Of a stretch of DNA of 31,355 nucleotides, positions 1,001-28,458 are shown piece after piece. The stretch's first letter is position 1. Each line of letters starts with the position of its first letter. A program made the translations under genes and the position numbers. The notes under the pieces are model-generated. The model saw nothing but the letters and a program-made list of their open reading frames with translations, had not been told where the DNA came from and made no database searches. Origin of the DNA: a virus (Duplodnaviria; Caudoviricetes). The stretch lies in the IMG/VR virus record IMGVR_UViG_3300034093_000692, positions 1 to 31,355 of that record; one strand, 5' to 3'.

Positions 1001-1251
1001 GGGCGTTTCTTTTGAATCTTCAATCCAGCTTTTTTACACAAACCACAGATCACGCTCGGAGCGCGTCCAAACTTCTTGGACAGTTCTTTGTATGAAAACG
1101 TGGGGTTGTCTTTTACGAACCGCTCGATGGCCGCCTTCTCTTTCTCGGTCATCGGGCTCCAACCTTCTTTGGGTTTCTCGACTACAACGGTTTTCGTGAT
1201 CGTGGGCTGTGGACCCATCAGGCGTTCAATGGCTTCACGGGAGAGTTTCAT
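997..1251 (-). CDS. Small helix-turn-helix protein (84 aa)
   Basis: Start moved to ATG at 1251 (MKLSREAIERL) to avoid a long overlap with the exonuclease; MTEKEKAAIERF...SYKELSKKFGRAPSVICGL is HTH-like. Confidence 0.7.
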   Translation of the reverse strand: MKLSREAIERLMGPQPTITKTVVVEKPKEGWSPMTEKEKAAIERFVKDNPTFSYKELSKKFGRAPSVICGLCKKAGLKIQKKRP

Positions 1252-2029
1252 CTTTGAGAATCCAGGTGGGCGATTGAATGATTTGAATGGAGTCGCCGTT
1301 GTAACCCGGCCAGCTGTCGGTGTCCTCGCAGACCATCCACTGGCGAATCCACGACTGCCATGTGGCTGATCCCTTGTCCAAGGATTCGGTGTCCATCTGG
1401 TAAACAGCGACCGCGTAGGGCGCTTGATCTTCGACGCAAATCCACTGCCAGGCGCGGGTCTCGCCAGTGATATCCCGATAGAGGTCGCGGTAGTACGCGG
1501 CCTGAACGTCGTAGCGCAGCTGGCCAATCTGCCGGCGGAACCCAGCCTTGCTAGCATCCCTCGTTTTCTTGAGATCCACGATTACCGGGGTCGTGTTGGG
1601 CAACCAGTCGATCAGGCCCTTGCGATCGCAGCCATCGAACTCGCCAAACATCCCGACCTGGGCCTTGCCCGGCTCAGCGAGCAATCGGCCGGCGACTGTG
1701 TGCTTACGCACGGACTCAACCATGCGCTCGACGGTTTCGATTGCGTCCTGCTTGAACACGGTGACCCGGCGGTACTCCTGGTCCTCTCTCCAGGCGCGTG
1801 CTTCCTTGGTTCGGAAGTCGTCGTAGGGAGATGTGGTCCAAAGGTACGGCGTCCCGAGGACCTTATGGTCCAAGAGACTGCCGATGTTCATGGCCTCCGA
1901 GGTTTCTCGTTCTTCCTCGAAGCCGACCAGAGCGTGGGCCGGCGACCGGCTGAACGCCTTGAGGCTGGAGATGTTGATCGCCGGGTGACTGCGGTAGGTG
2001 TTTACGTCGATGGGGTGGACTAAATTCAC
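1235..2029 (-). CDS. RecE/exonuclease VIII-like PD-(D/E)XK nuclease (DUF3799-like)
   Basis: YRSHPAINISSLK, KGLIDWL, IVDLKKT, YDVQAAYY motifs; GTG start with GGAGGT RBS; coupled to RecT-like gene. Confidence 0.9.
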   Translation of the reverse strand: MNLVHPIDVNTYRSHPAINISSLKAFSRSPAHALVGFEEERETSEAMNIGSLLDHKVLGTPYLWTTSPYDDFRTKEARAWREDQEYRRVTVFKQDAIETVERMVESVRKHTVAGRLLAEPGKAQVGMFGEFDGCDRKGLIDWLPNTTPVIVDLKKTRDASKAGFRRQIGQLRYDVQAAYYRDLYRDITGETRAWQWICVEDQAPYAVAVYQMDTESLDKGSATWQSWIRQWMVCEDTDSWPGYNGDSIQIIQSPTWILKDETLP

Positions 2030-3012
2030 AGCGCACCTCCCGCCTTCACCACTGCACGGCCGATACCGCGCTTATTCCGGATGATCCAGTTGCAGATATC
2101 AGGAGGAAGGTCTGCCACCGTGGGATAGGCTTCAGGGTTTTCCCACCACTTCAGGTCTATGACCAGCTTCACCAGCTGCTCGTAGGTGATCCCGGCGGAT
2201 GCTAGCGTCCCTTCGACGGTTTCAAGCTCAGGCTCCGGCGCGGGAACGGGTGCGACCGGGGCGGGTGCGGTCTCAACGATCTCCGGTGCGGGTTCAGGAG
2301 CGGCGGGAGCGGGCGGCTCCACGATTGCAATAGCCTCGGCCTCCTTCTTCTTGCGCGGCTTGGGCTCAACAGGTGCAGGAGGCGTCGGTGTCACGTCCAT
2401 GATGGATGAACTCACGGTGACCGACTGGACCACCTGCTGGGCCGCAGGCGTGTCCTGGACCTCTTCCGAGGTGTGCATACCAAGTGCGATCTCGGGCGCG
2501 TAGGTGCGGCACCAGAAAGCGCCAGCGCGGTACTGAAGCATCTGCTCCGGCATGGTCTTCCACTTAGAGCCAGACTTACCGTACCAACCCTCGACCTTGG
2601 CCATATTGATGTTCACGAGGGCGCCAACGAGTTCCAGGTTGGAGTCGCGCTCGACTGCGAAGGCGCGGCAGCCCCACTCATCTGTCCCCTCTTTTCCAAC
2701 CCAGCGGAAACGCATCGGACTAAACCGACCGCAGCTGTTGACGGTAGCAATCAGGAAGCTAGCAGACCAGGTGGGCTTGCCGTGGATAGGAACCATGGAC
2801 TGCATAACAGCCATGACCGAGGCGCCAATGCGCTGGCTGAGTTCCAGAGCGATGATGCAGTTCCCGAGGTTAGCCTCGCCCCGGTAGGCGTCGGGAACGA
2901 GGGTGCTGGACGCAAGGGCCTTGGCCATGCGTTGGACAGAGACGAACGCGTTCTCTGAAGAGAAGGCGCTGAGAGGTTGTGCTTGCTGCGTTGCGACTGA
3001 TAGGTTGCTCAT
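2026..3012 (-). CDS. recT: RecT/Redbeta-family single-strand annealing recombinase
   Basis: LASSTLVPDAY, NCIIALE, IHGKPTWS, SKWKTMPEQMLQYRAGAFWCRTYAPEIALGMHTSEE; adjacent to RecE-like nuclease; Pro/Ala/Glu linker and C-terminal domain. Confidence 0.85.
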   Translation of the reverse strand: MSNLSVATQQAQPLSAFSSENAFVSVQRMAKALASSTLVPDAYRGEANLGNCIIALELSQRIGASVMAVMQSMVPIHGKPTWSASFLIATVNSCGRFSPMRFRWVGKEGTDEWGCRAFAVERDSNLELVGALVNINMAKVEGWYGKSGSKWKTMPEQMLQYRAGAFWCRTYAPEIALGMHTSEEVQDTPAAQQVVQSVTVSSSIMDVTPTPPAPVEPKPRKKKEAEAIAIVEPPAPAAPEPAPEIVETAPAPVAPVPAPEPELETVEGTLASAGITYEQLVKLVIDLKWWENPEAYPTVADLPPDICNWIIRNKRGIGRAVVKAGGAL

Positions 3013-3029
3013 ACGTCAGTCAACGTATG
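3010..3029. repeat. Perfect 7-bp inverted repeat CATACGT-N6-ACGTATG covering the -10 box and recT start codon
   Basis: Read directly: 3010-3016 CATACGT, 3023-3029 ACGTATG. Confidence 0.85.
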
Positions 3030-3050
3030 GCAAGTGGCGCGCAGCGTCAA
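3013..3050 (-). promoter_or_regulatory. Sigma70-like promoter for the recT operon (probably leaderless)
   Basis: TTGACG (3050-3045), 17 nt, TACGTT (3027-3022), 9 nt, ATG; lies in one of only two gaps over 40 bp in the window. Confidence 0.7.
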
Positions 3051-3057
3051 TACAGGA

Positions 3058-6000
3058 TTATCGGATTCCCACAGCTTTTTTCGATTTTGCGTTCGCGATA
3101 TCTTCGATGCGATCCAGCTGGCGCTTAGTCGCTGTCGCTGGGTCCAGCTGAGAGATACGAGTCTTAAGCTCGACCGCTCGCACCTCTTGCATCTTAGTCA
3201 ACTCCTCTGGTGTGGCCTGCCTTTGCACGCGCCCGAACTGAAAGAACTTGTTGCTCTGAGGGGTGGCCGGCGTCCATCCAGTCTTGGCTAGTACCTGGTA
3301 AGCGCGATCAGGATCTTCGCCGCCCACGATTGCAGTGCCGCCGGTCAGGATAGACATGATGCGCTCCTGGGCGCGCGGTGTACCCACTGGGTCTCCTAGG
3401 AAGTTTCGGTCAACCTTTCCGCTCCAGGGTGTCGGGACCAGGAGGTTGATGAACGTCTGGTCCTTGGGGTTGAACTGCGCGCCGGACATAGCGGTCGCCT
3501 CGCGCATGAGGGGCCCGAACGGAATCAAGGGGCTCACGGCAGCGGCCGCGATCTTGCCTACATCTGCTGTTCCGCGATAGGTGCCGGCTCCGATAAGACC
3601 GGAAGTAGTGCGCCCTTGGGCTATGGCAGACCAGGCGCCGTAACCCAGTGCGCTGACAATATCCATGGCGGTGAGTTCTCGGGGCTCAAACTTCAGACCT
3701 TTCTTTTTGGCAGCGGCTCCAGCTTTTTGATTGAGACGGTCGCGTCTCGCCTGTTGGTACTGAAGCTCACCGACAGCGGCCAGCGCTGGTCGAACGAACT
3801 GGAACGGTCCAGTGCTAAGCGACACGCGGAGTATTTTCCCACCTGGTAAATCAAGCTCCATAGTGTTCGGCTTATGACCCTCACGCTCCCAAAGATCAGC
3901 CTCTTCCTTGTCGTCAGGCCAGTGAGTGAAGACTCGCAGTGCGCCCGAGAGCACTAATCCAACAAACAAACCAGAAAGCCCCAATCCTGCCGCAGCCTCG
4001 ATCTTCCGTTGCACCTTGTCGGTCTCAGTCTTGTACCAGGCTGACCCCTCAAACGCGCTGGGAACAAAGCCGCCGCCAGCAAACGTGAACCCTCGGTTGA
4101 CTCCGATTGCAACGGCGTTCGAGAACATTCCCAGAAGATCCGGAATCCCGACGCGCGACAGGATTTTCCCGGTGGATTTCATCGCTTGCCCAATGACGCC
4201 ACCAGGGCCGCCCTCCTCTTCGACGTTCCATCCAATGGTAGACCGTAGATTTTGCGTGATACCTTTGATATCTCCCGCGTCCAAACCAGCTGTCGCAATG
4301 CGTTGATACTGCCGTGCTCGCACCACGTTCCATGCAGCGGCGCTACGATCCTTGGGCGCGATATTGGGATTATCCCCGACCAGTGTCTGAGCCAGCGCGT
4401 ACTCAGCCAAAGCGTCGCCCATAATTGTCTTCGCAGCCTTACGTGCCTCGGCCGGCGCCATGCCTTGAAGGCGCAGCTGTGATTCTGTCCAAGCCCCAAT
4501 CTCCTGTTGTTCAGCCAGGACGCCTTGGAATGCGTCGAGGGATGAGGCGAAGCGATAGGACAACTGCGCGAGCCCAAGAATGCGAAGCACCGTGGCCTGC
4601 GCGTATTTGCCGGTCTTGTAGTACTCAGCAGCCTCCGCGTTAGCGCGATCCAGTGCCCGCATCCCGCTCTGCAGACCCATGATGGTATCCTTTTCAGCGC
4701 GGCCTTTGGCGGCCTGGAGCGCGGATTTGTACGCCATGTTAAGCGCGTTGAAGCGCGCCTTGTAGGCATCTTCGAGGGTGGTCGCCGTATCCTTCCAGAG
4801 GCGGAGTGTGCGATTCGGGTCGCGACTGGATATGAATCTTTGGATCGCTGTCGCACCTGCACGCGACGGCGTGTAAACGAACATCTGGGTAGCCACGTCG
4901 ATCAGCTGCTTGGTGATGAAACCAAATTTGAAAATCGTGTTTGCCGACCCGTATTCCTTGGCCGCCCTTGCTTGGTTCTGCTTGTTACCACGGATCGGCA
5001 GGGTCATCCGCGCCCAACGCATCTGGAGTTCACGCATAACGTCCATGCGCTTGCCCTCGTTCATCGCGGCCTTGATGTCGTCCGTGATGCCGGCGTTGAT
5101 CTCCTCTTCGGTGGCTGTGCTGAGTTCCTGCTCCAGGCGCGCCAGGTCTCGGAAGCGGGAAACCTCCTCATCAGTAGGCACCTTCCAGCCTGATTTCTTC
5201 GCAATGCTTTGCAGGAGCGCCGCTGAGTTCATGCCGCCCGCGTTCACGAACTGCTCGATCTTCTGCCAGAGCGGAGTGCCTGGGCCAGCCTCCTCGCGTT
5301 GTTTGCCGGTGAGCTTCTGGGTCGCCTTGTCTAGCGCTTGAATGCGAGCCCGCTCAAACTTCACCTGGAATGCCTTAGCCAGCGCGAGGCCCGTCTTGTC
5401 GGCCAACGCCTGGTCGATTGCCAGTTCTGACAGCAACGCTTCTGAGAATGCTTTAGCTAGATTAGCCTGGCCAGCTTGCGGGGTGTTGAGAACCCGCTTC
5501 ACTAGGTCACTCATCTTTGGAACCAGCCGCTGCAACGCGGGGTTCTTGGCCACGCTCTCGGCGATGCGCTGGTCCAGCAGGCCGGCACGGATACCGCCTT
5601 CTAAGCGATCGACGGCCTTAGCCCGGTCGGCCGCCAGCTGAGCATCAGTCTTCGGCTGTGCTGGATCGAAGCTCACGTCCTTGGCTCCCACGATCTGGGA
5701 GACTATTGCGTTCTCGGCCTCCATCATCCGCTCGGTGAGGTAAGTCCAGACAGCGCCCTGCATCCACTCATCGGCCAGATTCTCGGCTGCGACGATCTGG
5801 TTCAGCTTGCCGGTGAGGAACGCGAGCTTCTCGGCCCGAGTCTTGGTCGCCATGCCTGAAAGCTCGTCGGCCGTCAGGTAGGTCTTAGCGACGCGCTTTA
5901 GGAGTTTACGGGTGGGCTCAGATTGGTAGCGCTTATCCTCGGTGATGCCGGCGTTGATTAGCCGCTGGAGACTATCGCTCGCGGTTGTGGGGCCAGTCTT

Positions 6001-9000
6001 GGCCTTCACGTCCAGGAAGTTATTCAGCACGCGCTGGCGGGCCAGCTGGATCTGAGAACCCACATTGGCTGTAACCATCTGCATCACACGGGCTTTAGCC
6101 TCGGGGGACGCGCCGGCCAGGTCCATCACTCCTTCGATGGCGGCCAGCTGCTCTCCGATCACGCGGCTCATCTCGGCATTGGGAGACTGCACCAGGCGAA
6201 CGAGGTTGATCTTGGCAGGCGCCGCAGGGGCAACCTTCTTTGGCCCGAACTGTGTCCCCTTGAACCGGCCACGGATTACGTCCTGGGCAAGTTTCAGGGT
6301 GGTCGGCGAGTAGTTCAGGAACCCGTCGCGGATCGTGCGCCAGTGGGCGTACTTCGGGAGGTCGAGACCCTCCTCGATCGCCTCTGGATCGGGCTCTTCT
6401 TTGGCGTCCATGGCTTCCTGGTACTGAGCGCGAAGCTCTTCGTTGCCGGCTGCGCTAGCCATCATAACCGCCCATCCGGCGTTGAACTCAGCCTGCTTGA
6501 CGGCGTCCTCGGTAGCCTTCTGGACCTTGGCCTGGGTCGCAGGCTTGGTCATCAGCGCTAGGCGCTCGTCGGCCGTGAGCTTTCGATTCGGAGGCTGGGG
6601 AGGCTCGGTAACCCCAAGCATCCGCGCGTTCTGGATGATCTGCTCGATAGCTTCATTCTCAATCTCGCGTTCCTGTTTCTCCTTCTGAGTTTTCGGCTTC
6701 TTGGTAGTCAGGCGCGCCTGGACAGTGCGGTAAACGCGGCCACCGGTATCGGCCAGTGCCAGGACTCCAAACCGATTCAGCATCTCCCGGAGGTCAGGCT
6801 TCTCGCCAACGATCTTCTGGATATCGGCCTCGGTAAACTGACCACGGAACTCGGTCATGATCTTGTCCATCACACCCTTGACGCTCTCACCGTTGAAGCT
6901 GTCGTAGATGGCTGATGTAAGGAATCCGCGCACATTGCGAGCCATGGCCACGAAGTCCTTCACGGACGCCCTCAGGCTCGCCAGGTTAATACCAAACTGG
7001 GACGCCTCAGACTGACCGATCAGGTAGAGTTCATCTCGGGTATCAGGGCTGAATGCCTCGGATGCGCCGAAGTGGTTGCGGAGCGACTGGATTAGTTCTG
7101 CGATGGTATCGCTGCGGCCATCGGCCTTGGCCTTGGCGATCTTCTTTTTGGCGACCTCGATCAGCTTTCTTCCAGCCGCCTCCTGGTCAACCCCATCGAC
7201 AGGCGCGAAGAGGGTGTCTCCCACTTGGCGGAACTTTACACCCGCCTCGTTGAACGCATCAACCGCCAGCTGGATACCAGCGTTTACAACCTCAGGAGTC
7301 CTAGACCGTCGGCCGGCGACAGTGTCCTCGTATGCGCCACGCTTGGTGGTTACAGGCTTGCCGGGCGTACTGTAGATCACACCGAAGTCGCTGCTATTCG
7401 CACGCTCCGGCAAGGTGGCTACATCAGCGATAACCTCTGGTGTGGGCTCGACCGTAGATCCTTGAGCGCGGTCCCAAGCGTACTGCAACGCCGGACTGAG
7501 CTTCATTTGCAGGCTGGTCGCCCATCGTGAGGCGCTCTGGATGCCGGAGAGGATTGCTTTGGACGCCAGATTGGTAAGGGTTTCAAGAACCCGGCGCGCA
7601 GAATCCTCGGGCGTCGGGCCTTCAGTGATGCCAGCCTTGGGAGTGATAGACTCGACGAACTGGGCGATAGCGTCGGAGACTTCGGCGACGGCGTCGCTGA
7701 GGTCATCGAAAGAGGGGGTGAGGCGTACTGTAGGCCCACTTGGATCTGACGACAGCTGCCAAAACGAAACCCTTCCAGAAGCCTTTGGATTGCTTGCAAC
7801 GATAATGTTTCCAGAGGTCCGCACGTCTCCAAAGTGCTTACGAACCTCAGCAACGTAGTCGGATGTCTTCTTGTTGTTCTGGAATCCTTTGGATGTTCTG
7901 CGGCCATTGCCAGATCGGTCACCCTCGTAAATTTGGAAGTAGGCAACTCCGTTGGGCTCAAGCGCCTGAGCAGCCTGAAGAATGACATTGTCTCTAGCGG
8001 GAGCCTCAGCAACGACATTCAATACGTTAGGGACGGTCGTGGTTCCAAATCGCTCGCCTGACTGCAACCGATTGACAGCTGCACGATTGGATTCAACGCT
8101 TCGATTGAACGGATCAAACGGAACACTCTCCGTGACACCCCGCTCGCTCTCAAGGTACTGCTTCCCGAGGTCGAACTTACCGGCACCAATGTCCAGGTTT
8201 TTGCCGCGAGGAACGAAGATCTTACTCTTAAAGACTGCGGGGATCTGGGCCAGTGAAGTGTCGGCTGAGGAGACGTCTTGAGACGGTTGATCTGGCATGA
8301 GGCTAATCAGCCGGTTAGACAACTCGGCATCATTGACAGGGTCATTTGGGTAACTTTGCCGTGCCTGTGCAACCGCCTGGCGAATTGCGCGATCCACAGC
8401 CATGCCGGTGTGAATCAACCCCTTGGCGATCTGAAGGGCCAGCTTCGCCAGCGGCGTTAAAAGCAACGGATCCGAGTATTGATTTTCGTCGATGTTCCTA
8501 GTGATCTGATCAATGGCATCAATCGCTGATTTGCCGGCCCGTTGAATCGGACTTTCGTCAAAGAGATTCATCTGCGCCTTATCCTGGGCAGCCTTAGCTT
8601 CAGCAGCGGCGCGGGCTTCAGCTTGAGCCTTTTCTCTGCGAGCCTCCAGGTCGATGCCTTCCTCTCCAAGCAGGGTAACCTGTTCGGATTGCGTGCTGGT
8701 AATCAGATCACCCTGGTTTTCTTTAGCTGTAAGGCGGGGTTTGCGTTCGGCGGGCGCAGCCGGCCCTTCGGTAGGAAATTCAAACGCATCTCCGCCTCCG
8801 CGATCAGGAGGTTCATCCACGAAGATCGTGTCGTATTCCGTCAGTTGCTGAGCTCCAAATTTATCGCCATCGCGAATCGTGTAACCTCCATCTGGAGTAA
8901 CAACTGTAACCTCGAATTGCTCGCCTTGAACCGAGAACTTGTCTCCAAGCGCAAGGCTTCCAACTGATATTTGAATAGGTCCATCTGGTTCTCCAGCATT

Positions 9001-12000
9001 CTGCATCCCCTCAGTTTGAGCATCAACGAACGCATCATCCTGCGCCTGTAAGAACGCATCGAGACCCATCGCTTCTTTGGCGCCGGCTTCCGCTGCCTTA
9101 GTTTCCTCTTTAGCAGCAGCGACGTCTCCTTTGCGACCGCGTGCTGCCTTCTTAACTTCATCCCAGAACTCAGACACGCTCATGTCCCCATACTTACCGG
9201 GGTTTTGCATGGCAAGCTCCTGGAGGAGTACGTCTGGCAGATTCCGGCTTGTTGTTCCGCGCGACCTTCCTGCGAAGATTTTATTGAAGTACGCATCCAG
9301 TTTTGGAGCGTCGTCGTAGAGGTCTCTGATCCTATTTAGGCGTCCTTCATTGTTGGCCTGCGTTTTAGACATGACGCCACCGAGAGCAATAATGTCATCA
9401 AGGATGTCTCCTTTGAACGCCCACGCGCGGGCTTTGTAGCGCTTCTTAGGAGCGGCAGGTGTAGCTGGAGGTGTGGGGACAACAGGAGGTGTGGGTGCCA
9501 CCGGAGGCGTCGGCTCCTTCTTCGTCAGGTCCTTCTTGGCCGCCTCGGCAGCATTAGCCCCTGAGAACGACTCATCCTCGAAATTGAAGTTCTTAATGTT
9601 GGTAGCGGTAGCTCCCACCTCTCCTTGAACCAGCGCGCCCATGTCCCTCATGCGGCCACCAACTCGGGTCGCCAGTTCGCGCTCAAACGGAATGTTGTCC
9701 GCGAAGAGCCACATCATCTGGGCTTTACCTCTGAGTCCGTAGCGCGCAGACCGCAGCGACACCTGCTCCACCTGAGATGCGGTCCACGGCAAGTTGACGT
9801 TGATCTGGGTTGTCGGGTGCGTTCCAGTCTTGTCGTGTAACGATAGCCCTGTGCCGCCCTTAGCCATCGTGGCGACCAGGACCATAGGCTTGTCGCCGCG
9901 CCAGAGTTCGAGATTCTTCTGGGCCCGCGCATCTGTCACCGAACCCGTGAAGATTGCGACATCGTTGGCGCCAATCTCGTTTTTGATCACGTCTTCAGCG
10001 GACGGTATCGAAATTACAGTGGTGTCAATTCGCTCCATCGTCGCTTCCAGCACGTTAATTATGCCGTCTGACAGCAACCCTTGGTAATCCGAACGCTTCG
10101 GCTTTTCGCCTCCCGTCCTCTCTGCTATGGCTTTGGCTCGCTTGAATTGCTCCTGGAGCCTCAGCTGCTCTTGAATGTCGATGCTTCTCTCTGCCTTGGT
10201 CTCAACGAATATGATCGGCCATCTTCCGGCACTGAGGGCCCGGCGTGCTTCGCTGATTGCGTTCTTGATCTTAGACGCTTCCAGCAGGCGCTTCTTGTAG
10301 TTGATGATCCACATCTTTTCAGTGCCATCGAGGGAGCCCTTTTGAGCCTCGGCTTCAGCCGCAAACGCATTGTAGGTGTTGGTCCATTCTTCATCCCCTT
10401 TGATGGGCACCAGGCGCGAATCAACTTGGCTTGCTGGCAGTCGGGTCTTTCGAGCCGTGAAGATACCTTCCTTGCGGAAGAAATTTCTCGCCGCAATTTG
10501 ATCCTGCTCGTTGGTTTTAGTTGGGAACCAAATGGTTCGGACGATGTTTCCTCCGCTGTCCCTACTCGGTGTCGCACCGTACGCAAGAGCGAACTGTTTG
10601 TAATCACCGTTGAACGAATCAAAGATTCCAGTGTTCAGTAGGTAGGCCGTCTGAGTCGGGTTCTCGAACGGCGTCGCGGTTGAGAAGATCGGGAACTTGG
10701 TCTTAAGAATCCACTCTTGAGCCTTCTTGGCCTGCTCTGATCCGCTTCCAGCCAGGTTCTTGATCGCGTGCGCTTCGTCGAAGATTATCACGTCTGAGTC
10801 TTCCGCTTGGAGATCCTTCATCTCCGAGTAGGTGATAAACTTCACGGGGCCGATATTGTAAGCCTTGAGATCCTGTTTGATCTGCTTAATCAACCCTTGA
10901 TTGAGGGTCACGTAGATGATCTTGCGGGCGAAATAATTATCCTTTATCTCGCGAATAGCAGCCCCCAACACGAAGGTCTTTCCGGTTCCAGGTGCGCTGG
11001 AAAGCATGAAGAACGGCCGGGTGTCTCGTTCCGCAAACGCTCGCACTATCATGGCCGCGTCTTCAATCTGCTCATCTCCAACTTCTCTCGGGATGCCAAA
11101 CTCTTCGCCTTGGCGGATAAGCTCCTGAGTTCCTACGTCAAGATACTTGTCAACGCCTCCGTCCAATCCGCTTCGGTCGGGCCGGTTGTCCGCATTCTCT
11201 CGGAGTTTTCGGAGTTCAACATCACGGGAATAAGCCGGGCCACTACTTCTTTGTCCGCCAGCAGCTCCCGAATCAGCTCTTGATCGCTCGATAAACTGCC
11301 CAAGACCGGCGGCAGAGATCGTGTAGAACTTGTCATTCCCGATTTGGGAATATCGTCCGCCGGCATTGGTAAGTTCTTCTTTGCGGTCGTAAGTCTTACC
11401 CCGGAGGGTGATGCTACCATCTGGGTTCTGCCGGGCGTTAATCTTGAGGCCAGTGAGGAAGGATTGGTTTTCATCGGTAAGGATTGCTTCGGCTTTCGCT
11501 CTCTCTTCTGTGACCGCGTTCTGGTATTCCGGCAGTGAGTTAATGTAGTCGCCAACTTGGCGCGAGCGCGACCCAAGGGCGGCGCTCCTGGTGCTTCGGA
11601 CCAACCACATAGCGTAGTCCGGCTGTTGCGCGAAGAGGTCTTTGACTAAGAGGGCGGCGTACTTCCCGTGGCTAACGTTTTGGTTGGCGATTGCGGGGGT
11701 AGCAGCAGGGGCGGGGCGGGGTGCGGGGGCGGGGGGCTTAGGCGCGGGCGCGGCGGGCGCAGGTTTAGGTGCAGCGGGAGTCGCCGCCGGCGCAGGAACC
11801 AGCGCGGCCCTCAAGGCTTTAATGGTCCCGACGGGATCTAACTTTAGACCGCTGTTAACACCGCTCATCTGGCCGCTATCCATCCGCATTCCGATTTCGG
11901 ATTGGGCAAATCCTTCCGCAGTTAGACGACCTCGTTCCGCTTGTGTTTGAAGTCTCTCCAGCTCGAAGTCCGCGTCTTTGTATAAAAGCGGGCTAAACCC

Positions 12001-13611
12001 GTAATTCGGAGCCTCCGTGATCGTGTACCGGAAATCAGGCGCCACCTGGAACGGGGTTGGCTCCTGTGGCGCAGTAGGCGTTTCTGCCACGGCTGGCGTT
12101 TCTGCCACGGCGGGGGTCGCCGCAGCTTCAGGCTTAGTCCACCCCGTGGTCTCATCGAACTGAAACCCAGCATCTTGCAGCTGGCGAATACGGCCAACAA
12201 AACCCTCGAAACGAATCAACTCTTCATCAGTAAGGAGAACATCAGTGACTGAGCCTTCTCCGATGGCGTCAACGATTGAGAGAAATTCCTGAGTCTCCTC
12301 AACCGTCAGCGGCTGGACTTCGGTGGGAGTAGCAGAGACCGATGTCTCGGAGGCAGCGACCGTCTCAGGAGCAACAGCGGTAACTTCGACTGGGGTCTCC
12401 TCATCAGCTACGTCGGTCTCCAGAGCCATGTCTGGAATCTTGGCTTCTTCATCTGCCGGCACAACAGCCCTACCTGGAGGTACGAGCTTAATCGGTCCAG
12501 AAGGCGCGCCGCCGGAGTTGATGCCAGCAAGGGTGGCGGTGGCGTTGGGGAGTGGGAGGTTGGGATCGCCGCCGATAGCAGCGACGCCGGCTGCTTGGCG
12601 GTCGATGATTTCCTGAAGGCGCTGCCCTCCAGGTGCAGGCCCTTCGACAAGGCGTTGCTCCTGGATCTGGCCCATCCTACGAACTCGTCCATAACGGCCT
12701 GCTCCGCCAGTCACTAATCCAACCAGGCCACCTACCGTTCCGCCGACTGAAGTCGAATCATAAACGCCTTCGCTTAGTTTCTGATCGGGGTTGTAAGTCT
12801 TCCTGGCGACTGCGTTGCCAAGCCATTGCTCTGACCCCTCCTGACCAGCTTCTCCGACCAACGGTTTTAAGATATCTTCTAGGAGGTTTTTTCCTGCCTT
12901 GCCCGCTATCGCCTGATTGATTGCCGGCACCGCTCCGATAGCTCGCTCCGTAAGCCCACCAATCGGCGCAGTGTAAAAAGCCGCTTGGTACTGTTTGGTA
13001 GGCTTTTCAGCTTGTAGGCGATTGACCTCTGTTATGTTCCCTTCAGCCAATGCCTGCGCGATCTTGGCGTCGTAAAACTGGCCAGCGCGTTGAGCCGCAT
13101 CTTCTGCGGTGCTGAATGCGTAAGCCGCTTGCCCGACACCAGGCACTATCGACACAGGAAGTGACCCTAGTCCGCTGGCGACCTGGGTGAGAAAATCATC
13201 TTCTCGAAGGGGATTGACTGGGAATGCTTCTCTTGCGCCCTCTTGAAGCGCCTTGCCCATCTGGAATGTCGGGCTGGCCTCAAGCATCGCTGCACGAGCC
13301 ATGGTTTCCTCCGGCGACACCTCCTTGACGCGCTTTTCCCAGGCTGCCTGCCTACGTTCGTAGGCCGCCATCGCAGCTGGGCTTTCAGCCTGTGCTGCTG
13401 AGATTAATGGCGCTGGCTCTTCGAGGCCTACACGCGTCAGGCCCATCATACCTCCACCGACCATGCGGCCACCTTCGCGCATGAGGGCGTTGCCAGCAGC
13501 GGGCAGCGCGCCTTGATCAATAGAATCAACAAGCTCTTGAAGCTCTTGGTCAGTGGCATCATCGGGAACCTCGATCAGGCCGATGTCCTGGATATCAATG
13601 AGCTTAGGCAT
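3058..13611 (-). CDS. Giant (3517 aa) ejection-type polyvalent protein with Strawberry-notch-like SF2 helicase and methyltransferase-like domain (DarB-like)
   Basis: APGTGKT (aa 873), IIFDEAH (945), STATP, GGTGLSLHD, LPWTASQVEQVSLRSAR; LDIGAG/FDPF/NVLNVV at aa ~1806-1867; long helical C-terminal half with hydrophobic segment; last gene of the tail/ejection operon. Confidence 0.85.
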   Translation of the reverse strand: MPKLIDIQDIGLIEVPDDATDQELQELVDSIDQGALPAAGNALMREGGRMVGGGMMGLTRVGLEEPAPLISAAQAESPAAMAAYERRQAAWEKRVKEVSPEETMARAAMLEASPTFQMGKALQEGAREAFPVNPLREDDFLTQVASGLGSLPVSIVPGVGQAAYAFSTAEDAAQRAGQFYDAKIAQALAEGNITEVNRLQAEKPTKQYQAAFYTAPIGGLTERAIGAVPAINQAIAGKAGKNLLEDILKPLVGEAGQEGSEQWLGNAVARKTYNPDQKLSEGVYDSTSVGGTVGGLVGLVTGGAGRYGRVRRMGQIQEQRLVEGPAPGGQRLQEIIDRQAAGVAAIGGDPNLPLPNATATLAGINSGGAPSGPIKLVPPGRAVVPADEEAKIPDMALETDVADEETPVEVTAVAPETVAASETSVSATPTEVQPLTVEETQEFLSIVDAIGEGSVTDVLLTDEELIRFEGFVGRIRQLQDAGFQFDETTGWTKPEAAATPAVAETPAVAETPTAPQEPTPFQVAPDFRYTITEAPNYGFSPLLYKDADFELERLQTQAERGRLTAEGFAQSEIGMRMDSGQMSGVNSGLKLDPVGTIKALRAALVPAPAATPAAPKPAPAAPAPKPPAPAPRPAPAATPAIANQNVSHGKYAALLVKDLFAQQPDYAMWLVRSTRSAALGSRSRQVGDYINSLPEYQNAVTEERAKAEAILTDENQSFLTGLKINARQNPDGSITLRGKTYDRKEELTNAGGRYSQIGNDKFYTISAAGLGQFIERSRADSGAAGGQRSSGPAYSRDVELRKLRENADNRPDRSGLDGGVDKYLDVGTQELIRQGEEFGIPREVGDEQIEDAAMIVRAFAERDTRPFFMLSSAPGTGKTFVLGAAIREIKDNYFARKIIYVTLNQGLIKQIKQDLKAYNIGPVKFITYSEMKDLQAEDSDVIIFDEAHAIKNLAGSGSEQAKKAQEWILKTKFPIFSTATPFENPTQTAYLLNTGIFDSFNGDYKQFALAYGATPSRDSGGNIVRTIWFPTKTNEQDQIAARNFFRKEGIFTARKTRLPASQVDSRLVPIKGDEEWTNTYNAFAAEAEAQKGSLDGTEKMWIINYKKRLLEASKIKNAISEARRALSAGRWPIIFVETKAERSIDIQEQLRLQEQFKRAKAIAERTGGEKPKRSDYQGLLSDGIINVLEATMERIDTTVISIPSAEDVIKNEIGANDVAIFTGSVTDARAQKNLELWRGDKPMVLVATMAKGGTGLSLHDKTGTHPTTQINVNLPWTASQVEQVSLRSARYGLRGKAQMMWLFADNIPFERELATRVGGRMRDMGALVQGEVGATATNIKNFNFEDESFSGANAAEAAKKDLTKKEPTPPVAPTPPVVPTPPATPAAPKKRYKARAWAFKGDILDDIIALGGVMSKTQANNEGRLNRIRDLYDDAPKLDAYFNKIFAGRSRGTTSRNLPDVLLQELAMQNPGKYGDMSVSEFWDEVKKAARGRKGDVAAAKEETKAAEAGAKEAMGLDAFLQAQDDAFVDAQTEGMQNAGEPDGPIQISVGSLALGDKFSVQGEQFEVTVVTPDGGYTIRDGDKFGAQQLTEYDTIFVDEPPDRGGGDAFEFPTEGPAAPAERKPRLTAKENQGDLITSTQSEQVTLLGEEGIDLEARREKAQAEARAAAEAKAAQDKAQMNLFDESPIQRAGKSAIDAIDQITRNIDENQYSDPLLLTPLAKLALQIAKGLIHTGMAVDRAIRQAVAQARQSYPNDPVNDAELSNRLISLMPDQPSQDVSSADTSLAQIPAVFKSKIFVPRGKNLDIGAGKFDLGKQYLESERGVTESVPFDPFNRSVESNRAAVNRLQSGERFGTTTVPNVLNVVAEAPARDNVILQAAQALEPNGVAYFQIYEGDRSGNGRRTSKGFQNNKKTSDYVAEVRKHFGDVRTSGNIIVASNPKASGRVSFWQLSSDPSGPTVRLTPSFDDLSDAVAEVSDAIAQFVESITPKAGITEGPTPEDSARRVLETLTNLASKAILSGIQSASRWATSLQMKLSPALQYAWDRAQGSTVEPTPEVIADVATLPERANSSDFGVIYSTPGKPVTTKRGAYEDTVAGRRSRTPEVVNAGIQLAVDAFNEAGVKFRQVGDTLFAPVDGVDQEAAGRKLIEVAKKKIAKAKADGRSDTIAELIQSLRNHFGASEAFSPDTRDELYLIGQSEASQFGINLASLRASVKDFVAMARNVRGFLTSAIYDSFNGESVKGVMDKIMTEFRGQFTEADIQKIVGEKPDLREMLNRFGVLALADTGGRVYRTVQARLTTKKPKTQKEKQEREIENEAIEQIIQNARMLGVTEPPQPPNRKLTADERLALMTKPATQAKVQKATEDAVKQAEFNAGWAVMMASAAGNEELRAQYQEAMDAKEEPDPEAIEEGLDLPKYAHWRTIRDGFLNYSPTTLKLAQDVIRGRFKGTQFGPKKVAPAAPAKINLVRLVQSPNAEMSRVIGEQLAAIEGVMDLAGASPEAKARVMQMVTANVGSQIQLARQRVLNNFLDVKAKTGPTTASDSLQRLINAGITEDKRYQSEPTRKLLKRVAKTYLTADELSGMATKTRAEKLAFLTGKLNQIVAAENLADEWMQGAVWTYLTERMMEAENAIVSQIVGAKDVSFDPAQPKTDAQLAADRAKAVDRLEGGIRAGLLDQRIAESVAKNPALQRLVPKMSDLVKRVLNTPQAGQANLAKAFSEALLSELAIDQALADKTGLALAKAFQVKFERARIQALDKATQKLTGKQREEAGPGTPLWQKIEQFVNAGGMNSAALLQSIAKKSGWKVPTDEEVSRFRDLARLEQELSTATEEEINAGITDDIKAAMNEGKRMDVMRELQMRWARMTLPIRGNKQNQARAAKEYGSANTIFKFGFITKQLIDVATQMFVYTPSRAGATAIQRFISSRDPNRTLRLWKDTATTLEDAYKARFNALNMAYKSALQAAKGRAEKDTIMGLQSGMRALDRANAEAAEYYKTGKYAQATVLRILGLAQLSYRFASSLDAFQGVLAEQQEIGAWTESQLRLQGMAPAEARKAAKTIMGDALAEYALAQTLVGDNPNIAPKDRSAAAWNVVRARQYQRIATAGLDAGDIKGITQNLRSTIGWNVEEEGGPGGVIGQAMKSTGKILSRVGIPDLLGMFSNAVAIGVNRGFTFAGGGFVPSAFEGSAWYKTETDKVQRKIEAAAGLGLSGLFVGLVLSGALRVFTHWPDDKEEADLWEREGHKPNTMELDLPGGKILRVSLSTGPFQFVRPALAAVGELQYQQARRDRLNQKAGAAAKKKGLKFEPRELTAMDIVSALGYGAWSAIAQGRTTSGLIGAGTYRGTADVGKIAAAAVSPLIPFGPLMREATAMSGAQFNPKDQTFINLLVPTPWSGKVDRNFLGDPVGTPRAQERIMSILTGGTAIVGGEDPDRAYQVLAKTGWTPATPQSNKFFQFGRVQRQATPEELTKMQEVRAVELKTRISQLDPATATKRQLDRIEDIANAKSKKAVGIR
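11708..11736 (+). other. G-tract cluster (G4,G4,G4,G5,G6), potential G-quadruplex, in a Pro/Ala linker
   Basis: GGGGCGGGGCGGGGTGCGGGGGCGGGGGG read directly. Confidence 0.55.
12077..12111. repeat. 18-bp-period tandem duplication encoding (AVAETP)x2
   Basis: GGCGTTTCTGCCACGGC at 12077-12093 and 12095-12111. Confidence 0.85.
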
Positions 13612-14589: not shown

Positions 14590-15360
14590 TTAGCTTAGTC
14601 CTTGGCGACCGTAACCTGTCGGCATTCCAGTTGAATAATTCCAATCACCACCTGTGCCAGCATTAGCGCGAGTTTGCGCCCCCAGCTGCGCGAATCCAAG
14701 GTTGGTTAACCCTGATCCAAGCGATCCGAATGCCTGACCAGCAACTCCAGTTGCGCTCGGCATACCGGCAACACCAAGCAGCGCCTGTTGCTGGGCGCCA
14801 CGCTCACCGCCTCGCAGGGCTGCTATCTGTTGCGGAGTGAACTCGTAGTTGGCTAGCGGTGCCATTGGTGTGGTTCCGATTATGTTGGCGAATTGTTGTT
14901 CACCGAGTCTTGCGGCTTCATAAGAACCCCGACCAAGGTCTCGAAGAACCAAATTCTTCCCGGCTCCACTTCCGGCAAACCCTTTCTCAAGAGCTTGACT
15001 GGCCGCTCTACGTTGAATCTGCGCCGCGACATCAGGTGGTAGTTCTCCTCGAAGCAGCGCTAGCGCGTTCTGCGTGCGCTGAGCTTGGCCTTCCTGATAA
15101 CCAGGAATCTGAATGCCGAGTGACTCCAGCAGCTGGGCGCGACTAATCGCATTTCGCTCAGCCTCCATTTCACGGGCACGAGGCGCGTTTAGGGAGGATT
15201 CTCCCATCACTGAGCCAATGTTGATTCCCGGGAGGTTAGCGGCGTCACGGCCTTGCCGGCGTGCTGCGCTGGCAGACGATGCCGACATACCGGCACCAAT
15301 CCCTGCCGACACAATTCCGCCTGCGATTACTGGCCCAACTGCTGATGCGAATATTGACAT
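14590..15360 (-). CDS. Putative ejection/DNA-transfer protein 1 (256 aa; role analogous to P22 gp7/T7 gp14)
   Basis: Gly/Ala-rich hydrophobic N-terminus (GPVIAGGIVSAGIGAGMSASSASAA), Q/A-rich body, Gly-rich C-terminus; no Cys or His. Confidence 0.7.
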   Translation of the reverse strand: MSIFASAVGPVIAGGIVSAGIGAGMSASSASAARRQGRDAANLPGINIGSVMGESSLNAPRAREMEAERNAISRAQLLESLGIQIPGYQEGQAQRTQNALALLRGELPPDVAAQIQRRAASQALEKGFAGSGAGKNLVLRDLGRGSYEAARLGEQQFANIIGTTPMAPLANYEFTPQQIAALRGGERGAQQQALLGVAGMPSATGVAGQAFGSLGSGLTNLGFAQLGAQTRANAGTGGDWNYSTGMPTGYGRQGLS

Positions 15361-17891: not shown

Positions 17892-20800
17892 CTAGATGCG
17901 GTAAAGGTAGTCGTTTGGCTTACACGGGCCTGGGTCGCATTCAAGCGCCAAACAAGCCTCCGGACAATCGAAATAGAAGAATTGGTTCAGCGGCGCAACG
18001 CATCCCGATGATCTTCCGCTAATGAAAAAGGTCGCGAACCTGCCACCGTTGTTGATCACCAGCGGGTCTCCACTCAAGCGGCGCACCGTGTTGCATCCAA
18101 TCTGGATGTTCTCGACGTACCTTAGGAAGTTCCCGGTTGATGATGTGAACGCGACATTGGGGCCAGGACTCGCGCAGGTAAACGTCGTCAGCGTAGGAAT
18201 CCCAGTCACGATCACCTCGTCGTTGAACGAAACATCGCTGAGCCCCTCAACGGTTGCGTGGTATCCAACGACCATCTGGTGCGCCTTGTTCGTCGTGTAC
18301 GTGGCCACCCCTGCGGTGCGCTGAAATCCGATGGGTTGGATTTCCCAAGGAAAGTCTACCGGGCTATCAATTCCCAGAAGCCCTCCAGTGGTGCTTTCGT
18401 TTACGCCTGGATTTAAGACGGTGAAAGTCGTGGTAGTCGGAGTGGCTATAACCGTGAATTTTCCAATGAAGCTTCCGATGACGGTTTTCAGAATCGTCAC
18501 CTTAAAACCAGGTTGAAGCTCGTGCGCTGAAGCCGTTGTAAACGTCGTTACGCCAGTAAGGCGCGTCGCTGATGTAACAGGAATTTGATAATCCGTTGGA
18601 TAGTAAAAAGCAGACTTATCTACATCGTGGTTGTTAATAAGAAACGGAGCGTTGATCGGAGGATAGGCTGGCTGGTAATACCATGAATCAGGCCCAGACA
18701 ACAAAACGTCGTTGTTTTCAATTACCATGTTCTTATGCGCCGCTGTAAACGGGGAATAAAACTGGGCGTTATTTAGTGCGTAATAATCTACAGTTTGCAG
18801 CGCAATAAAAGAACTAACATTCAACGCTTCATTGTGGTGTAGGTGGGTTCCTTTATGAAAAAACGAATCAACGTAGAAACAAGTTCCAATATAACCATTG
18901 AAATTGTTGTACCTTACCTCTGCATCAACCGTTTCCCTCACCGTCACTGCGTGTAGCGGGCTTTGAGCATCCGGTCTATTCGGTCCAGATATAAATTTGT
19001 TTTCTTCTACGACACAATCCGATGCAAAGATGCGCCGGCTGCGAAGCATCATTACTGTGCCATCTCGGTACAGGCCAGGGAGGACGTTTGGGTTAGCGTT
19101 TGCAGCTGTAAATTTATACTGATCTGGTATGGTAAGAACGGTGTATGTGCCGTTGAATGTCGCGTCTGAAAAACCGCTTACCACCACTACATCACCCACC
19201 CTCAACGTGTGCTTCATCACGCAGGTGTATGTAGCAATTCCGGCCGATCTTGATATGATATTAATCGGATCTACTATTGATGAATATCCGCCAACCACAA
19301 CCTCCGTAACAGCCTCTGCGTTTCCAACGTAAAGTGTTCCTTGAACCGAGTTGCTGCCTTCGTATCCGAACTTATTTCTTAGAACTTTGGCTCCTGGCGT
19401 TCCATCCTCCACCGTCATTGGGAGGAATGTTTTAACCACAAATGATTCTTGGTTCAACGTCCCGTTCCCAAAATCGTAGAACTCGCAATCTTGAATCAGT
19501 GCGTTCTCTCCTGTGTGGTTAATGCCAGCAATAGTGTAGACCGAGTTTGCGCCAGCGTTTACTTGCGGTGTTAGGAGGACATCTGGAGCGGACCATGCGC
19601 GGCCGTTTTGGAGCAGGTCAACGGTGCCTAAGTCTGGAATTGGTCCAATGTTGGTTCCAGGGTTAGCGCAAGTAAACTGAACCGGGCTTGGATATCCATT
19701 TACGACAAACGTCCCGTTAAACGACGCATCGGAAAGACCTTGAATCAGGACGTTTTCTCCGCCCACGAAACCGTGCGGAGTTGCAGTATCGTAAATTGCA
19801 TTTCCAGCTAACCTTTCAAATCCATTAATCTGAACAGTCGTCGTAGGCCCAACATTAACACACAACACCTCGTTGATTGAAGGAAACGATACAACTACAA
19901 ATGTTCCATTTAGCGTTGCGTTTGAAAATCCAGTTACAGTAAACGAATTTCCAATAGTAAAAGGGAAATACCAATTAGGATGGCGAGTGTAAATAGCTTG
20001 ATTTACAGAATTTCTTTTTGCTTGAATTAATACAACGCCAACGTCTCGTTGAAACGAAAATTGAGTGATGTTCTGAACTTGACCATAACCCACAAATGTA
20101 ACATCAGCTCCAGTTCCGGCGGTTATAACATTACTGATATATTGCTGATATATTCCTACGTTTGTATACAACGGAGGAATTGGAGGGACGTATACAGGAG
20201 GTGCCTGTGATGAAAACTGAGTTGTTAAACCATACGGATGAACAAATGCAATAGGTATTGCAGAGTTGTAGGTATTTATTCCGTTAGTTCTCTGAACTGA
20301 TACTATTTTAACATCAGCAACGGAATTGTTTCTGTAATTTCCATCAATAGTAAGACCTTGTATTAAAGTATTTTTGCAATTTGTAGCATCTGCTGGGTTT
20401 CCTTTTACGCTTAAAGGAACTCCAACAACTCCTGATCCAGTGGCGGTCCCGATAGTCTTAATCATCTGGGCGCTTAACCCATACAAATCAAATATCTTTG
20501 TCGATGTATGATCTGCAAACTTAAGGATAGTTTTTCCTGCGCCTTGACCAGTGATCTCAATATTGTTGATCGCCGCATCGTATCCAAGTAGAATTGAGGA
20601 TGTAAATCCTCCGCCAACAAGGTTTATCCATCCATCTTCGGTGACCAATCCAGAGTTTGGTCCAGGAACCGTTGCTGTAAACGTAGTTGAGCTTGGGGTT
20701 GCATCGACGCGGAAGCCATAATAAGTTGCGGGATTTCCGTCAGGTCCGTTGAACGTAGGGTCCGTAAAACCGTACAGCGTAATTTTCTCTCCAACAACCA

Positions 20801-21008: not shown

Positions 21009-21009
21009 A

Positions 21010-23049: not shown

Positions 23050-23092
23050 GACGCTTGAACGTATTGAAAGGCCGCAGCAGCATTCCCGCAAG
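23050..23092. promoter_or_regulatory. 43-bp divergent promoter region between tail and packaging operons
   Basis: Plus: TTGAAC (23055-60), 17 nt, CAGCAT (23078-83), 9 nt, ATG. Minus: TACGTT (23063-58), 8 nt, ATG. Confidence 0.55.
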
Positions 23093-28204: not shown

Positions 28205-28458
28205 CCCCAAAACAAGAGTTTCAAAAAAACCAACAGCGCCTCAACGAGCTTAAGCGCCTCCTGGATAATCAGGACTTACAAGCTGCCCTACTCGTTGCGT
28301 TCAATAATTTCTGCTGGAACCTGCCAGCCTCAGAGAATCCTCAACATGGATGGAATGCCAACTGTCGCAGACAGGGGGCTAAAGCCTTGATTGATGAACT
28401 CAACGGGCTGGCAGAGATGCGGAAAGAAAAACCGACCACCACTCAAAACCTCGAATGA
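28201..28458 (+). CDS. Small helical protein following portal
   Basis: ATGA-coupled at both ends; RQGAKALIDEL resembles small post-portal proteins of podoviruses. Confidence 0.7.
   Translation: MTPKQEFQKNQQRLNELKRLLDNQDLQAALLVAFNNFCWNLPASENPQHGWNANCRRQGAKALIDELNGLAEMRKEKPTTTQNLE

What the first reader, a model, noticed from the sequence alone, without database searches (positions are those of the whole stretch)
3058..13611. Giant ejection-type protein carrying an SF2 helicase and a methyltransferase: candidate virion-delivered DNA protection/establishment machine
Seen: a 3517-aa ORF closing the tail operon, with a Strawberry-notch-like helicase (~9620-11080), a Rossmann MTase-like domain (~7780-8290), small accessory domains, Pro/Ala linkers, and a helical C-terminal half with a hydrophobic segment (~3930-3995). 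Established: the largest podoviral ejection protein (T7 gp16, P22 gp20/gp16) occupies this slot, P1 DarB is an injected MTase+helicase antirestriction protein, and large polyvalent phage proteins are a known class. Inference: this protein forms the membrane conduit and also delivers enzymes that translocate and/or modify incoming DNA before transcription. This is the best candidate for an undescribed system here; the class is known, this combination may not be.
Basis: partly seen in the sequence, partly recalled or inferred. Interest (0 to 1): 0.85.

Follow-up and report, generated by a model that had tools for sequence, protein, structure and literature searches.

The report
Phage ejection protein with swappable enzymes
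This lake phage encodes one real 3,517-residue protein that is likely shot into the host cell ahead of the DNA and carries a predicted DNA-tracking motor and a predicted methyltransferase, but relatives gain and lose the two enzymes independently, so it is a variant of a known kind of injected multi-enzyme protein rather than a coupled DNA-protection machine.

Summary
Ejection-protein identity is well supported but not shown in virions. The gene is last of a small-medium-giant trio, all three cysteine-free. Its N-terminus weakly matches the N4-like virion RNA polymerase N-domain, and its modelled C-terminus resembles internal virion proteins of T7-like marine podophages. The "helicase" is an intact SWI2/SNF2-type ATPase, so likely a dsDNA translocase. 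The methyltransferase is class I but not a recognisable DNA methylase and not DarB-like. The proposed coupled machine is not supported. Of 57 full-length relatives, 49 have the ATPase, 8 the methyltransferase and only 5 both. The methyltransferase sits in a sharply bounded slot that is empty in most relatives or holds an ADP-ribosyltransferase or another domain. Loaded and empty forms occur in the same lake sample. Near-identical copies of this methyltransferase sit in unrelated giant proteins. Verdict: a polyvalent ejection protein (class described in 2017; JC1/Bcep22 giants are virion-proven precedents) with independent swappable cargo. The new element is an uncharacterised, widespread, virion-associated methyltransferase family of unknown substrate. 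Interest 0.38.

The parts
3058..13611 (-). Giant third ejection-type polyvalent protein, 3517 aa, no cysteine, basic C-terminal tail
12622..13314 (-). Constant N-terminal module (res ~100-330), likely inner-membrane anchor; res 176-313 match the N-terminal domain region of N4-like virion RNA polymerase
   Evidence: phrog_2206 E 4.6e-5; relative P0104 E 3.6e-6; family HMM vs N4 gp50 res 254-441 only E 0.04
11452..11664 (-). Optional small domain (res 650-720), ExoX-like_C-like; 32 of 57 relatives
   Evidence: the L014 copy hits PF20600 at E 0.002, below cut-off
11212..11454 (-). Small domain (res 720-800) that travels with the ATPase (49 of 57, the same 49)
9562..11214 (-). SWI2/SNF2-type SF2 ATPase cassette, catalytic motifs intact, dN/dS 0.07-0.20; 49 of 57 relatives
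9052..9429 (-). Optional module (res 1395-1520; 35 of 57); an unrelated module is found in 20 of 57, mostly where this one is absent
8752..8979 (-). Small accessory domain (res 1545-1620; 36 of 57), unassigned
7702..8570 (-). Swappable cargo slot (leader module + MTase); these 869 nt are replaced by about 11-15 nt in the empty form
   Evidence: joint 7701-8571 in run X16
8296..8544 (-). Leader module in front of whichever cargo fills the slot (MTase, ART-PolyVal, or an unnamed domain)
7777..8292 (-). Class I SAM-dependent methyltransferase of an uncharacterised phage family (DxGxG, DPxNR, NVLNV); 8 of 57 relatives; dN/dS 0.04 against L069 (synonymous sites near saturation)
3061..7404 (-). Constant C-terminal core; res 2850-3517 modelled (mostly helical) and similar to podoviral internal virion proteins
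3937..3993 (-). Hydrophobic segment res 3207-3225, candidate membrane helix
13615..14583 (-). 322-aa cysteine-free protein, likely second ejection protein (tunnel); by position only
   Evidence: no family hit
14590..15360 (-). 256-aa cysteine-free protein with hydrophobic N-terminus, likely first ejection protein; by position only
1235..3012 (-). RecT-like annealing protein and exonuclease VIII-like gene directly downstream; possible agent of cassette exchange (inferred)

Best explanation
This is likely the third (largest) ejection protein of a short-tailed lake phage: its constant ends would anchor it in the host inner membrane, while its variable middle carries independently gained and lost cargo, here a SWI2/SNF2-type ATPase predicted to track along the entering double-stranded DNA and a class I methyltransferase that likely acts on something other than DNA adenine. 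Mechanism committed to: (1) packaged in the head and ejected with the 256- and 322-aa proteins (inferred from position, zero cysteine, and similarity of both ends to ejection proteins); (2) N- and C-terminal hydrophobic segments sit in the inner membrane and leave the middle in the cytoplasm, as modelled for T7 gp16 and N4 gp50 (inferred); (3) the ATPase uses ATP to translocate on the incoming DNA and displace host proteins such as restriction complexes or silencers, an accessory counter-defence job (fold and intact motifs shown, activity and target inferred); (4) the methyltransferase is a separate, host-specific effector, most likely for an RNA, protein or small-molecule target (family-level class shown, substrate inferred); (5) cassettes are exchanged by homologous recombination in the conserved flanks, plausibly through the adjacent RecT/ExoVIII genes (mosaicism shown, agent inferred).
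For: Ejection identity: small-medium-giant trio here and in both distant relatives examined, G001 and G002, matching the operon described in PMC8954989 (passages). 0 Cys in 3517 aa, 0 in both upstream proteins, 0 in 75 of 76 relatives, against 76 Cys in 5312 aa of the 12 other window genes counted; N4 gp50 also has 0 in 3500, and PMC3715699 (passage) suggests this matters for passing the tail/periplasm. The N-terminus hits phrog_2206 at E 4.6e-5. The C-terminal model gives 22 BFVD hits at E<=0.001, led by 'internal virion protein' of Synechococcus phage S-CBP2 (8.8e-8), with Pelagibacter phage Eyrgjafa, S-CBP3 and polyvalent proteins among them. No tape-measure Pfam match in 5 of 5 near-complete relatives. 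ATPase: all 50 listed Foldseek rows are SNF2-family complexes by entry title; VIA best is Ino80, Z 24.0, rmsd 2.8 over 376 residues; FANCM, the first clearly non-SNF2 row, has Z 17.5. Independence: 5/44/3/5 table, Fisher p 0.074 with a negative trend. The MTase label needs 8 changes for 9 carriers on a 57-row core tree (shuffled mean 8.6; at least 6 forced by strong branches). L001 (95% nt identity in the core) lacks the cassette. The same slot holds ART-PolyVal in P0057 and P0084. The MTase is 75-81% identical in giants that share no other region with P0001. 0 of the 150 best ATPase-family representatives carry it. MTase carriers hold polyvalent or virion domains in 12 of 27 scanned (10 above cut-off), and the domain is Cys-poor when fused (5 of 32 vs 10 of 20 standalone, p 0.012).
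Against: No virion proteomics, no cultured host, no assay. The C-terminal model is weak (pLDDT 58.7), and the BFVD matches have low TM-scores (0.17-0.40) and high rmsd. The family HMM reaches N4 gp50 only at E 0.04. The 322-aa middle protein is smaller than any gp15-like protein in PMC8954989 (431-982 aa), and neither small protein has a family hit. The 57 relatives are 90%-identity cluster representatives, not independent lineages, and only 2319 candidates were scored. A separate lineage (L082, L086, L093; also L118) also joins a Sno-like ATPase with this MTase family, 4 of the 78 other MTase loci, and a distant backbone relative (P0118) pairs the ATPase with a DNA-MTase family, so some tendency to pair cannot be excluded. 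The MTase fold was not modelled and its substrate is untested. A distant, below-cut-off hit to the phosphorothioation-associated putative MTase TIGR04096 (1 of 11, E 0.085) keeps DNA open as a substrate.
Confidence: 0.62

Rival explanations
1. DarB-like coupled machine: the ATPase translocates on injected DNA and the MTase methylates it to protect it from restriction.
For: Both domains are in one injected-type chain. The methylase-helicase dyad is a major polyvalent theme (PMC5512222, passages of section 14). A second lineage pairs a Sno-like ATPase with this MTase. Strand 4 begins with Asn, as in DarB's motif.
Against: 44 of 49 ATPase carriers lack the MTase, and 3 of 8 MTase carriers lack the ATPase. 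No profile match to the DarB MTase. 0 of 64 members hit a DNA-MTase Pfam family at E<=0.05; hits are Methyltransf_23/12/11, rRNA_methylase (10) and Bmt2 (3). Order is reversed, with ~420 residues between the domains. No LPD36 hit.
Confidence: 0.12
2. Genome-pulling motor: the membrane-anchored SNF2 ATPase actively draws the genome into the cell, taking the place that the RNA polymerase holds in N4 gp50.
For: The N-terminus resembles the vRNAP N-domain region. N4/DEV are proposed to pull DNA with an enzyme fused to the third ejection protein (PMC13434306 and PMC10925440, passages). SNF2 ATPases translocate on dsDNA (PMC5512222). The ATPase is common (49 of 57) and under purifying selection.
Against: 8 of 57 relatives lack it, among them close ones with a core 92-98% identical over residues 2900-3517 (P0037), so it is not essential for entry. 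The same ATPase family sits in many unrelated giant backbones at varying positions.
Confidence: 0.13
3. Cargo is released: the giant is a head-packaged precursor cut into free enzymes, not a membrane-tethered scaffold, or it is not part of the conduit at all.
For: Long Pro/Ala linkers separate the modules. Polyvalent proteins are proposed to be processed by zincin peptidases (PMC5512222 section 33).
Against: No HExxH motif in P0001. Both ends are constant, and there is a strong hydrophobic segment.
Confidence: 0.1

Closest known systems
Phage-type polyvalent proteins (Iyer et al. 2017, PMC5512222; abstract, sections 6, 29, 33 and passages read; supplements not available)
   Same: Giant multidomain late-gene protein joining unrelated activities. 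Relatives and carriers of both cassettes hold ART-PolyVal, InPase, ddrB-ParB, LPD23/38/39, PBECR5 or RadC. SWI2/SNF2 ATPases, including a few Strawberry-notch-like ones, are named cargo.
   Different: The paper's MTase is an EcoKI/TaqI-like adenine MTase nearly always fused N-terminal to the ATPase, with LPD36. Here the MTase is of another group, lies downstream and is optional. No zincin. The window's own protein hits no LPD Pfam family.
Phage P1 DarB (NC_005856)
   Same: SF2 ATPase plus MTase in a virion-type protein; remote ATPase similarity at motifs V-VI (hhalign E 1.9e-5).
   Different: No meaningful whole-protein BLAST match (best E 0.026); MTase not detectably related; reversed order; DarB has 9 Cys; no obligate pairing here.
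JC1 gp69 / Bcep22 gp75 'DarB-like' giants of Burkholderia podoviruses (PMC9144972, passages and table rows)
   Same: ~4,500-aa protein at the end of the virion module after two smaller virion proteins (196 and 510 aa), found in virions by mass spectrometry (51 unique peptides).
   Different: Annotated as DarB-like. No cultured phage record matched the ATPase or the N-terminus of the window's protein by tblastn.
N4 gp50 / DEV gp71 virion RNA polymerase (PMC13434306, PMC10925440, passages)
   Same: ~3,500-aa, cysteine-free third ejection protein with a membrane-binding N-domain and an enzyme as cargo; weak N-terminal similarity.
   Different: The cargo there is a fixed RNA polymerase plus zincin; here it is a changing set of cassettes.
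T7 gp16-like internal virion proteins, closest by model those of cyano- and pelagi-podophages (S-CBP2, S-CBP3, Eyrgjafa)
   Same: Last of the trio, helical C-terminal region with similar predicted fold, hydrophobic segments on both sides of the middle, basic C-terminal tail.
   Different: About three times longer; no transglycosylase detected; no match to a solved ejection-protein structure.

Membership tests
Polyvalent proteins (Iyer 2017) | Two or more domains of unrelated biochemistry in one chain | tested here: met
   SNF2 ATPase and class I MTase
Polyvalent proteins (Iyer 2017) | Encoded among late/virion genes of a portal-terminase phage | tested here: met
   terminase and tail-fibre/virion PHROG hits in the window
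Polyvalent proteins (Iyer 2017) | Domain network shared with named polyvalent domains | tested here: met
   ART-PolyVal in the same slot of P0057 and P0084; InPase and RadC on the same backbone; 4 of 13 scanned ATPase carriers and 12 of 27 scanned MTase carriers hold such or virion domains
Polyvalent proteins (Iyer 2017) | Packaged and injected with the DNA | not testable with these tools
   needs virion mass spectrometry; indirect support
Podoviral third ejection protein (gp16/gp50 slot) | Small-medium-large three-gene cluster | tested here: met
   256/322/3517 aa here; 467/343/3677 and 723/369/2137 aa in G002 and G001
Podoviral third ejection protein (gp16/gp50 slot) | Membrane-spanning segments | tested here: inconclusive
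   KD 1.88 at res 3207-3225, 1.24 at 141-159, 1.06 at 287-305; hydropathy only
Podoviral third ejection protein (gp16/gp50 slot) | Homology to known ejection proteins | tested here: inconclusive
   BFVD internal virion proteins at E down to 8.8e-8 but TM <=0.40 on a pLDDT-59 model; phrog_2206 E 4.6e-5; no PDB match
DarB-type methylase-helicase dyad | EcoKI/TaqI-like N6-adenine MTase with NPPY-type motif | tested here: not met
   strand-4 motif NVLNV conserved; 0 of 64 hit a DNA-MTase Pfam family; no match to the DarB MTase
DarB-type methylase-helicase dyad | Order LPD36-MTase-SF2, nearly always fused | tested here: not met
   ATPase precedes MTase by ~420 aa; both present in 5 of 57 relatives; no LPD36 hit
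SWI2/SNF2 ATPases | Two RecA lobes with SNF2-like helical inserts; intact motifs I-VI | tested here: met
   motif VI has Leu for the usual Gly (Gly in 55% of 138 rows), both Arg and Gln kept
Strawberry notch subfamily | AAA_34 plus Helicase_C_4 above cut-off | tested here: inconclusive
   AAA_34 31.6 > 27 as a slice; Helicase_C_4 15.5 < 30.5
Strawberry notch subfamily | C-terminal winged helix domain (per PMC5512222) | tested here: inconclusive
   no Pfam hit downstream; the next module is exchangeable and also occurs without the ATPase; not modelled
Class I (seven-strand) SAM methyltransferases | DxGxG motif I, acidic strand 2, Rossmann fold | tested here: met
   motifs 95-99% conserved over 80 rows; 56 of 64 Methyltransf_23; fold inferred from family, not modelled

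The most novel reading that the evidence does not exclude
A membrane-tethered SNF2 translocase on the third ejection protein acts as an ATP-driven, transcription-independent motor that speeds genome entry, standing where N4 carries its RNA polymerase, and the swappable methyltransferase founds a new family of injected enzymes that methylate host RNA or protein in the first minutes of infection.
Probability: 0.12. Interest if true: 0.8.

Novelty: new variant of a known kind. Interest (0 to 1): 0.38.

Why it matters
Natural alleles differ by exactly one cassette in an otherwise near-identical ejection protein. This shows where a podoviral ejection protein tolerates foreign domains, and gives built-in controls for what injected SNF2 ATPases do without a methylase partner, a question the DarB model leaves open. 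The methyltransferase family is widespread (79 viral loci kept from one scan, 35 in reading frames of 1000 aa or more), uncharacterised and not of a DNA-adenine type, so finding its substrate could reveal a new early host-takeover or counter-defence chemistry. The overall design, however, is known.

Tried and rejected
Coupled ATPase-MTase machine: rejected on co-occurrence, tree scatter and family assignment. DarB homology: rejected. Idea that the two modules flanking the slot are paralogous repeats: not shown; hhalign probability 0.5%, no better than ten control segments. No solved structure matches the C-terminal model: Foldseek best E 0.16, VIA best Z 7.9; this excludes nothing. Sequence searches of the PDB gave nothing significant for the MTase (best E 0.064, arsenite MTase, then a tRNA MTase and UbiG), the C-terminal alignment, the 693-aa tail gene or the unnamed L002 cassette. 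No cultured phage matches the ATPase, the N-terminus or P0104. The MTase matches only KVP40-like Vibrio phage hypothetical proteins and one uncultured phage (12 records). P22 gp10-like Pfam PF11134 was not found in 5 of 5 relatives, so the tail hub is unassigned. Host not identified: three MAG contigs from unrelated phyla, likely mis-binned phage contigs, and cluster names gave no host. Literature: no paper held 'ejection protein'+'SNF2'+'phage'; 'Strawberry notch'+phage+methyltransferase gave only Iyer 2017 as relevant, of 3 listed; the motif search gave nothing relevant among 17; the Bmt2/SAMTOR search gave nothing on phage MTases. Supplements of PMC5512222 could not be read and may already list this MTase family. 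No complex prediction was run. Both folding jobs went to the ATPase and the C-terminus, so the MTase fold is unmodelled.
Full report
Observation. The window is a whole 31,355-base virus record. The ORF 3058..13611 (-) encodes 3517 aa. It follows tail-fibre-type genes and two unassigned genes of 256 and 322 aa, and precedes recT and an exonuclease VIII-like gene; terminase and SSB lie on the other strand. Eighteen lake-water metagenome runs hold 97-100% of the sampled words, 17 of them flagged as possible sources. Complete relatives are 48.6 and 49.7 kb with terminal repeats, and no tape-measure Pfam match was found in 5 of 5 near-complete relatives.

Is it an ejection protein? Four indirect lines agree. 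Position: the small-medium-giant trio recurs in both distant 76-78-kb relatives examined and matches the operon in PMC8954989 (passages). Composition: the giant and both upstream proteins have no cysteine, as do 75 of 76 relatives (the exception, P0103, diverges at its C-terminus) and N4 gp50. The 12 other window genes counted have 76 in 5312 residues, though one of them, the 415-aa ORF at 28455, also has none. PMC3715699 (one passage) links this trait to passage through tail and periplasm. N-terminus: residues 176-313 match the N4-like vRNAP family near its membrane-binding N-domain (E 4.6e-5; relative P0104 E 3.6e-6; direct family HMM to N4 gp50 only E 0.04; membrane helices at N4 res 224-278 per PMC13434306, passages). 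C-terminus: an AF2 model of residues 2850-3517 (pLDDT 58.7) finds 22 BFVD entries at E<=0.001, topped by an internal virion protein of cyanophage S-CBP2 and including other internal virion and polyvalent proteins, but with TM-scores of 0.40 or less. The PDB gave nothing. The basic C-terminal tail is conserved, as described for T7 gp16. None of this replaces virion proteomics.

The ATPase. AF2 gives pLDDT 89.6. All 50 listed Foldseek rows are SNF2-family complexes by title, and VIA ranks Ino80 (Z 24.0, rmsd 2.8, 376 residues), CSB and SWR1 first. Catalytic motifs are intact and dN/dS is 0.07-0.20 in six pairwise comparisons. By established knowledge of SWI2/SNF2 enzymes (also stated in PMC5512222), it should translocate on duplex DNA without unwinding. 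The family has 966 representatives at E<=0.001. Of the best 150, 121 are proteins of 2000 aa or more, and only 3 (8 after profile iteration) share this C-terminal backbone. Four of 13 scanned carry named polyvalent domains. It is thus a mobile cargo of many giant backbones. Strict Strawberry-notch membership is inconclusive.

The methyltransferase. The family is class I: 56 of 64 members hit Methyltransf_23, 10 rRNA_methylase, 3 Bmt2, and none a DNA-MTase family. Strand 4 reads NVLNV, not an NPPY-type motif, and the profile does not match the P1 DarB MTase. Of 79 viral loci kept (from 95 confirmed matches), 35 lie in frames of 1000 aa or more, 19 stand alone and 25 are intermediate or cut. Twelve of 27 scanned carriers have polyvalent or virion domains. 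The domain avoids cysteine when fused (5 of 32 vs 10 of 20, p 0.012, not corrected for kinship). Copies 75-81% identical sit in giants sharing nothing else with P0001. The substrate is unknown; one weak hit to TIGR04096 keeps DNA open.

Are they coupled? Of 76 relatives found by the C-terminus, 57 also have the N-terminus; the other 19 are truncated or too distant and were dropped. Among the 57, 5 have both enzymes, 44 the ATPase only, 3 the MTase only and 5 neither (Fisher p 0.074, negative trend; rows not independent). Among 17 non-redundant IMG/VR loci, the MTase is only in the identical copy L017 and missing from the 15 others that span the site. On a tree of the core (57 rows including P0001, P0103 left out, quick method), 9 carriers need 8 changes, like shuffled labels. 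Junctions are sharp: after residue ~1681 comes either a short bridge into the constant core, or a leader module plus MTase, ART-PolyVal (P0057, P0084) or an unnamed domain (L002, P0100). In run X16 one contig joins 7701 to 8571 while another carries the loaded form without differences, so both forms share a sample; the empty one may be a related strain, as 85% likeness was allowed. Against: 4 of the 78 other MTase loci also hold a related ATPase, and P0118 pairs the ATPase with a true DNA-MTase family.

Mechanism. Shown: modular anatomy, intact SNF2-type fold, class I MTase family, independent cassette turnover. Inferred: packaging and ejection; membrane anchoring by the ends with the middle in the cytoplasm; ATP-driven tracking that clears host proteins from the entering DNA; a separate non-DNA-adenine target for the MTase; exchange by recombination in conserved flanks, with RecT/ExoVIII next door. 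An essential entry motor is unlikely because 8 of 57 relatives lack the ATPase; an accessory motor is not excluded.

Comparison and verdict. It works like N4 gp50 or JC1 gp69 (ejection scaffold plus enzyme cargo; JC1 gp69 is in virions, PMC9144972, passages), and it meets the testable criteria for phage polyvalent proteins (PMC5512222). It is not a DarB-type dyad. PMC7824862 (passages) describes small phage adenine methylases that may act on RNA; I did not test whether they are this family. Eight earlier scan notes describe similar giants in other genomes; they are unchecked leads, not support. New here are the uncoupled arrangement, the precisely bounded swap slot and the uncharacterised MTase family. 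I found no paper on them in the searches named, but could not read the 2017 supplements. New variant of a known kind; interest 0.38.

Noticed in passing
L002:6000-6590 (+); also P0100: An unnamed ~180-aa domain with an RPGWH motif fills the same slot as the MTase; no Pfam or PDB hit. From recall it resembles DUF7666-like phage domains; not tested.
   Followed up: partly
window 8560-8715 (-), res 1633-1684: Short Q-x-D/N-L-(L/I/F) peptides just before the slot, one conserved in about 65 copies across the relatives; they resemble sliding-clamp-binding motifs (recalled, no control run).
   Followed up: partly
P0104 res ~963-1195: A distant backbone relative without ATPase or MTase carries a domain hitting PHROGs for DNA polymerase / processivity factor.
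   Followed up: no
L082, L086, L093: A separate lineage of >3750-aa giants; L082 joins SLT transglycosylase, ddrB-ParB, a Strawberry-notch-like ATPase (Helicase_C_4 above cut-off) and the same MTase family.
   Followed up: partly
window 1235-3012 (-): RecT and exonuclease VIII-like genes start 45 nt after the giant gene on the same strand; an ExoVIII-like gene also follows the unrelated MTase-bearing giant in L069.
   Followed up: partly
window 22967-23091: The tail-side operon (-) and the terminase gene (+) diverge from overlapping longest ORF calls; SSB sits between terminase and the 776-aa likely portal gene. True starts not resolved.
   Followed up: no
window 24870-25289 (+): The SSB looks Verrucomicrobia/Planctomycetes-like from recall; cluster names gave no host.
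   Followed up: partly
window 17892-21203 (-): Low-GC (44-49%) 1103-aa fibre-like gene with repeated small beta domains; only 51% identical to its counterpart in G004, against 87-90% for the 362-aa gene and terminase.
   Followed up: no
L059:2968-3615: A distant standalone relative of the MTase lies near gene 55 in KVP40-like Vibrio phages, annotated hypothetical.
   Followed up: partly
window 7132 and 9090: All four laid runs show a contig linking these two places with long loose ends (tables 5c and 7); probably another organism's sequence.
   Followed up: no
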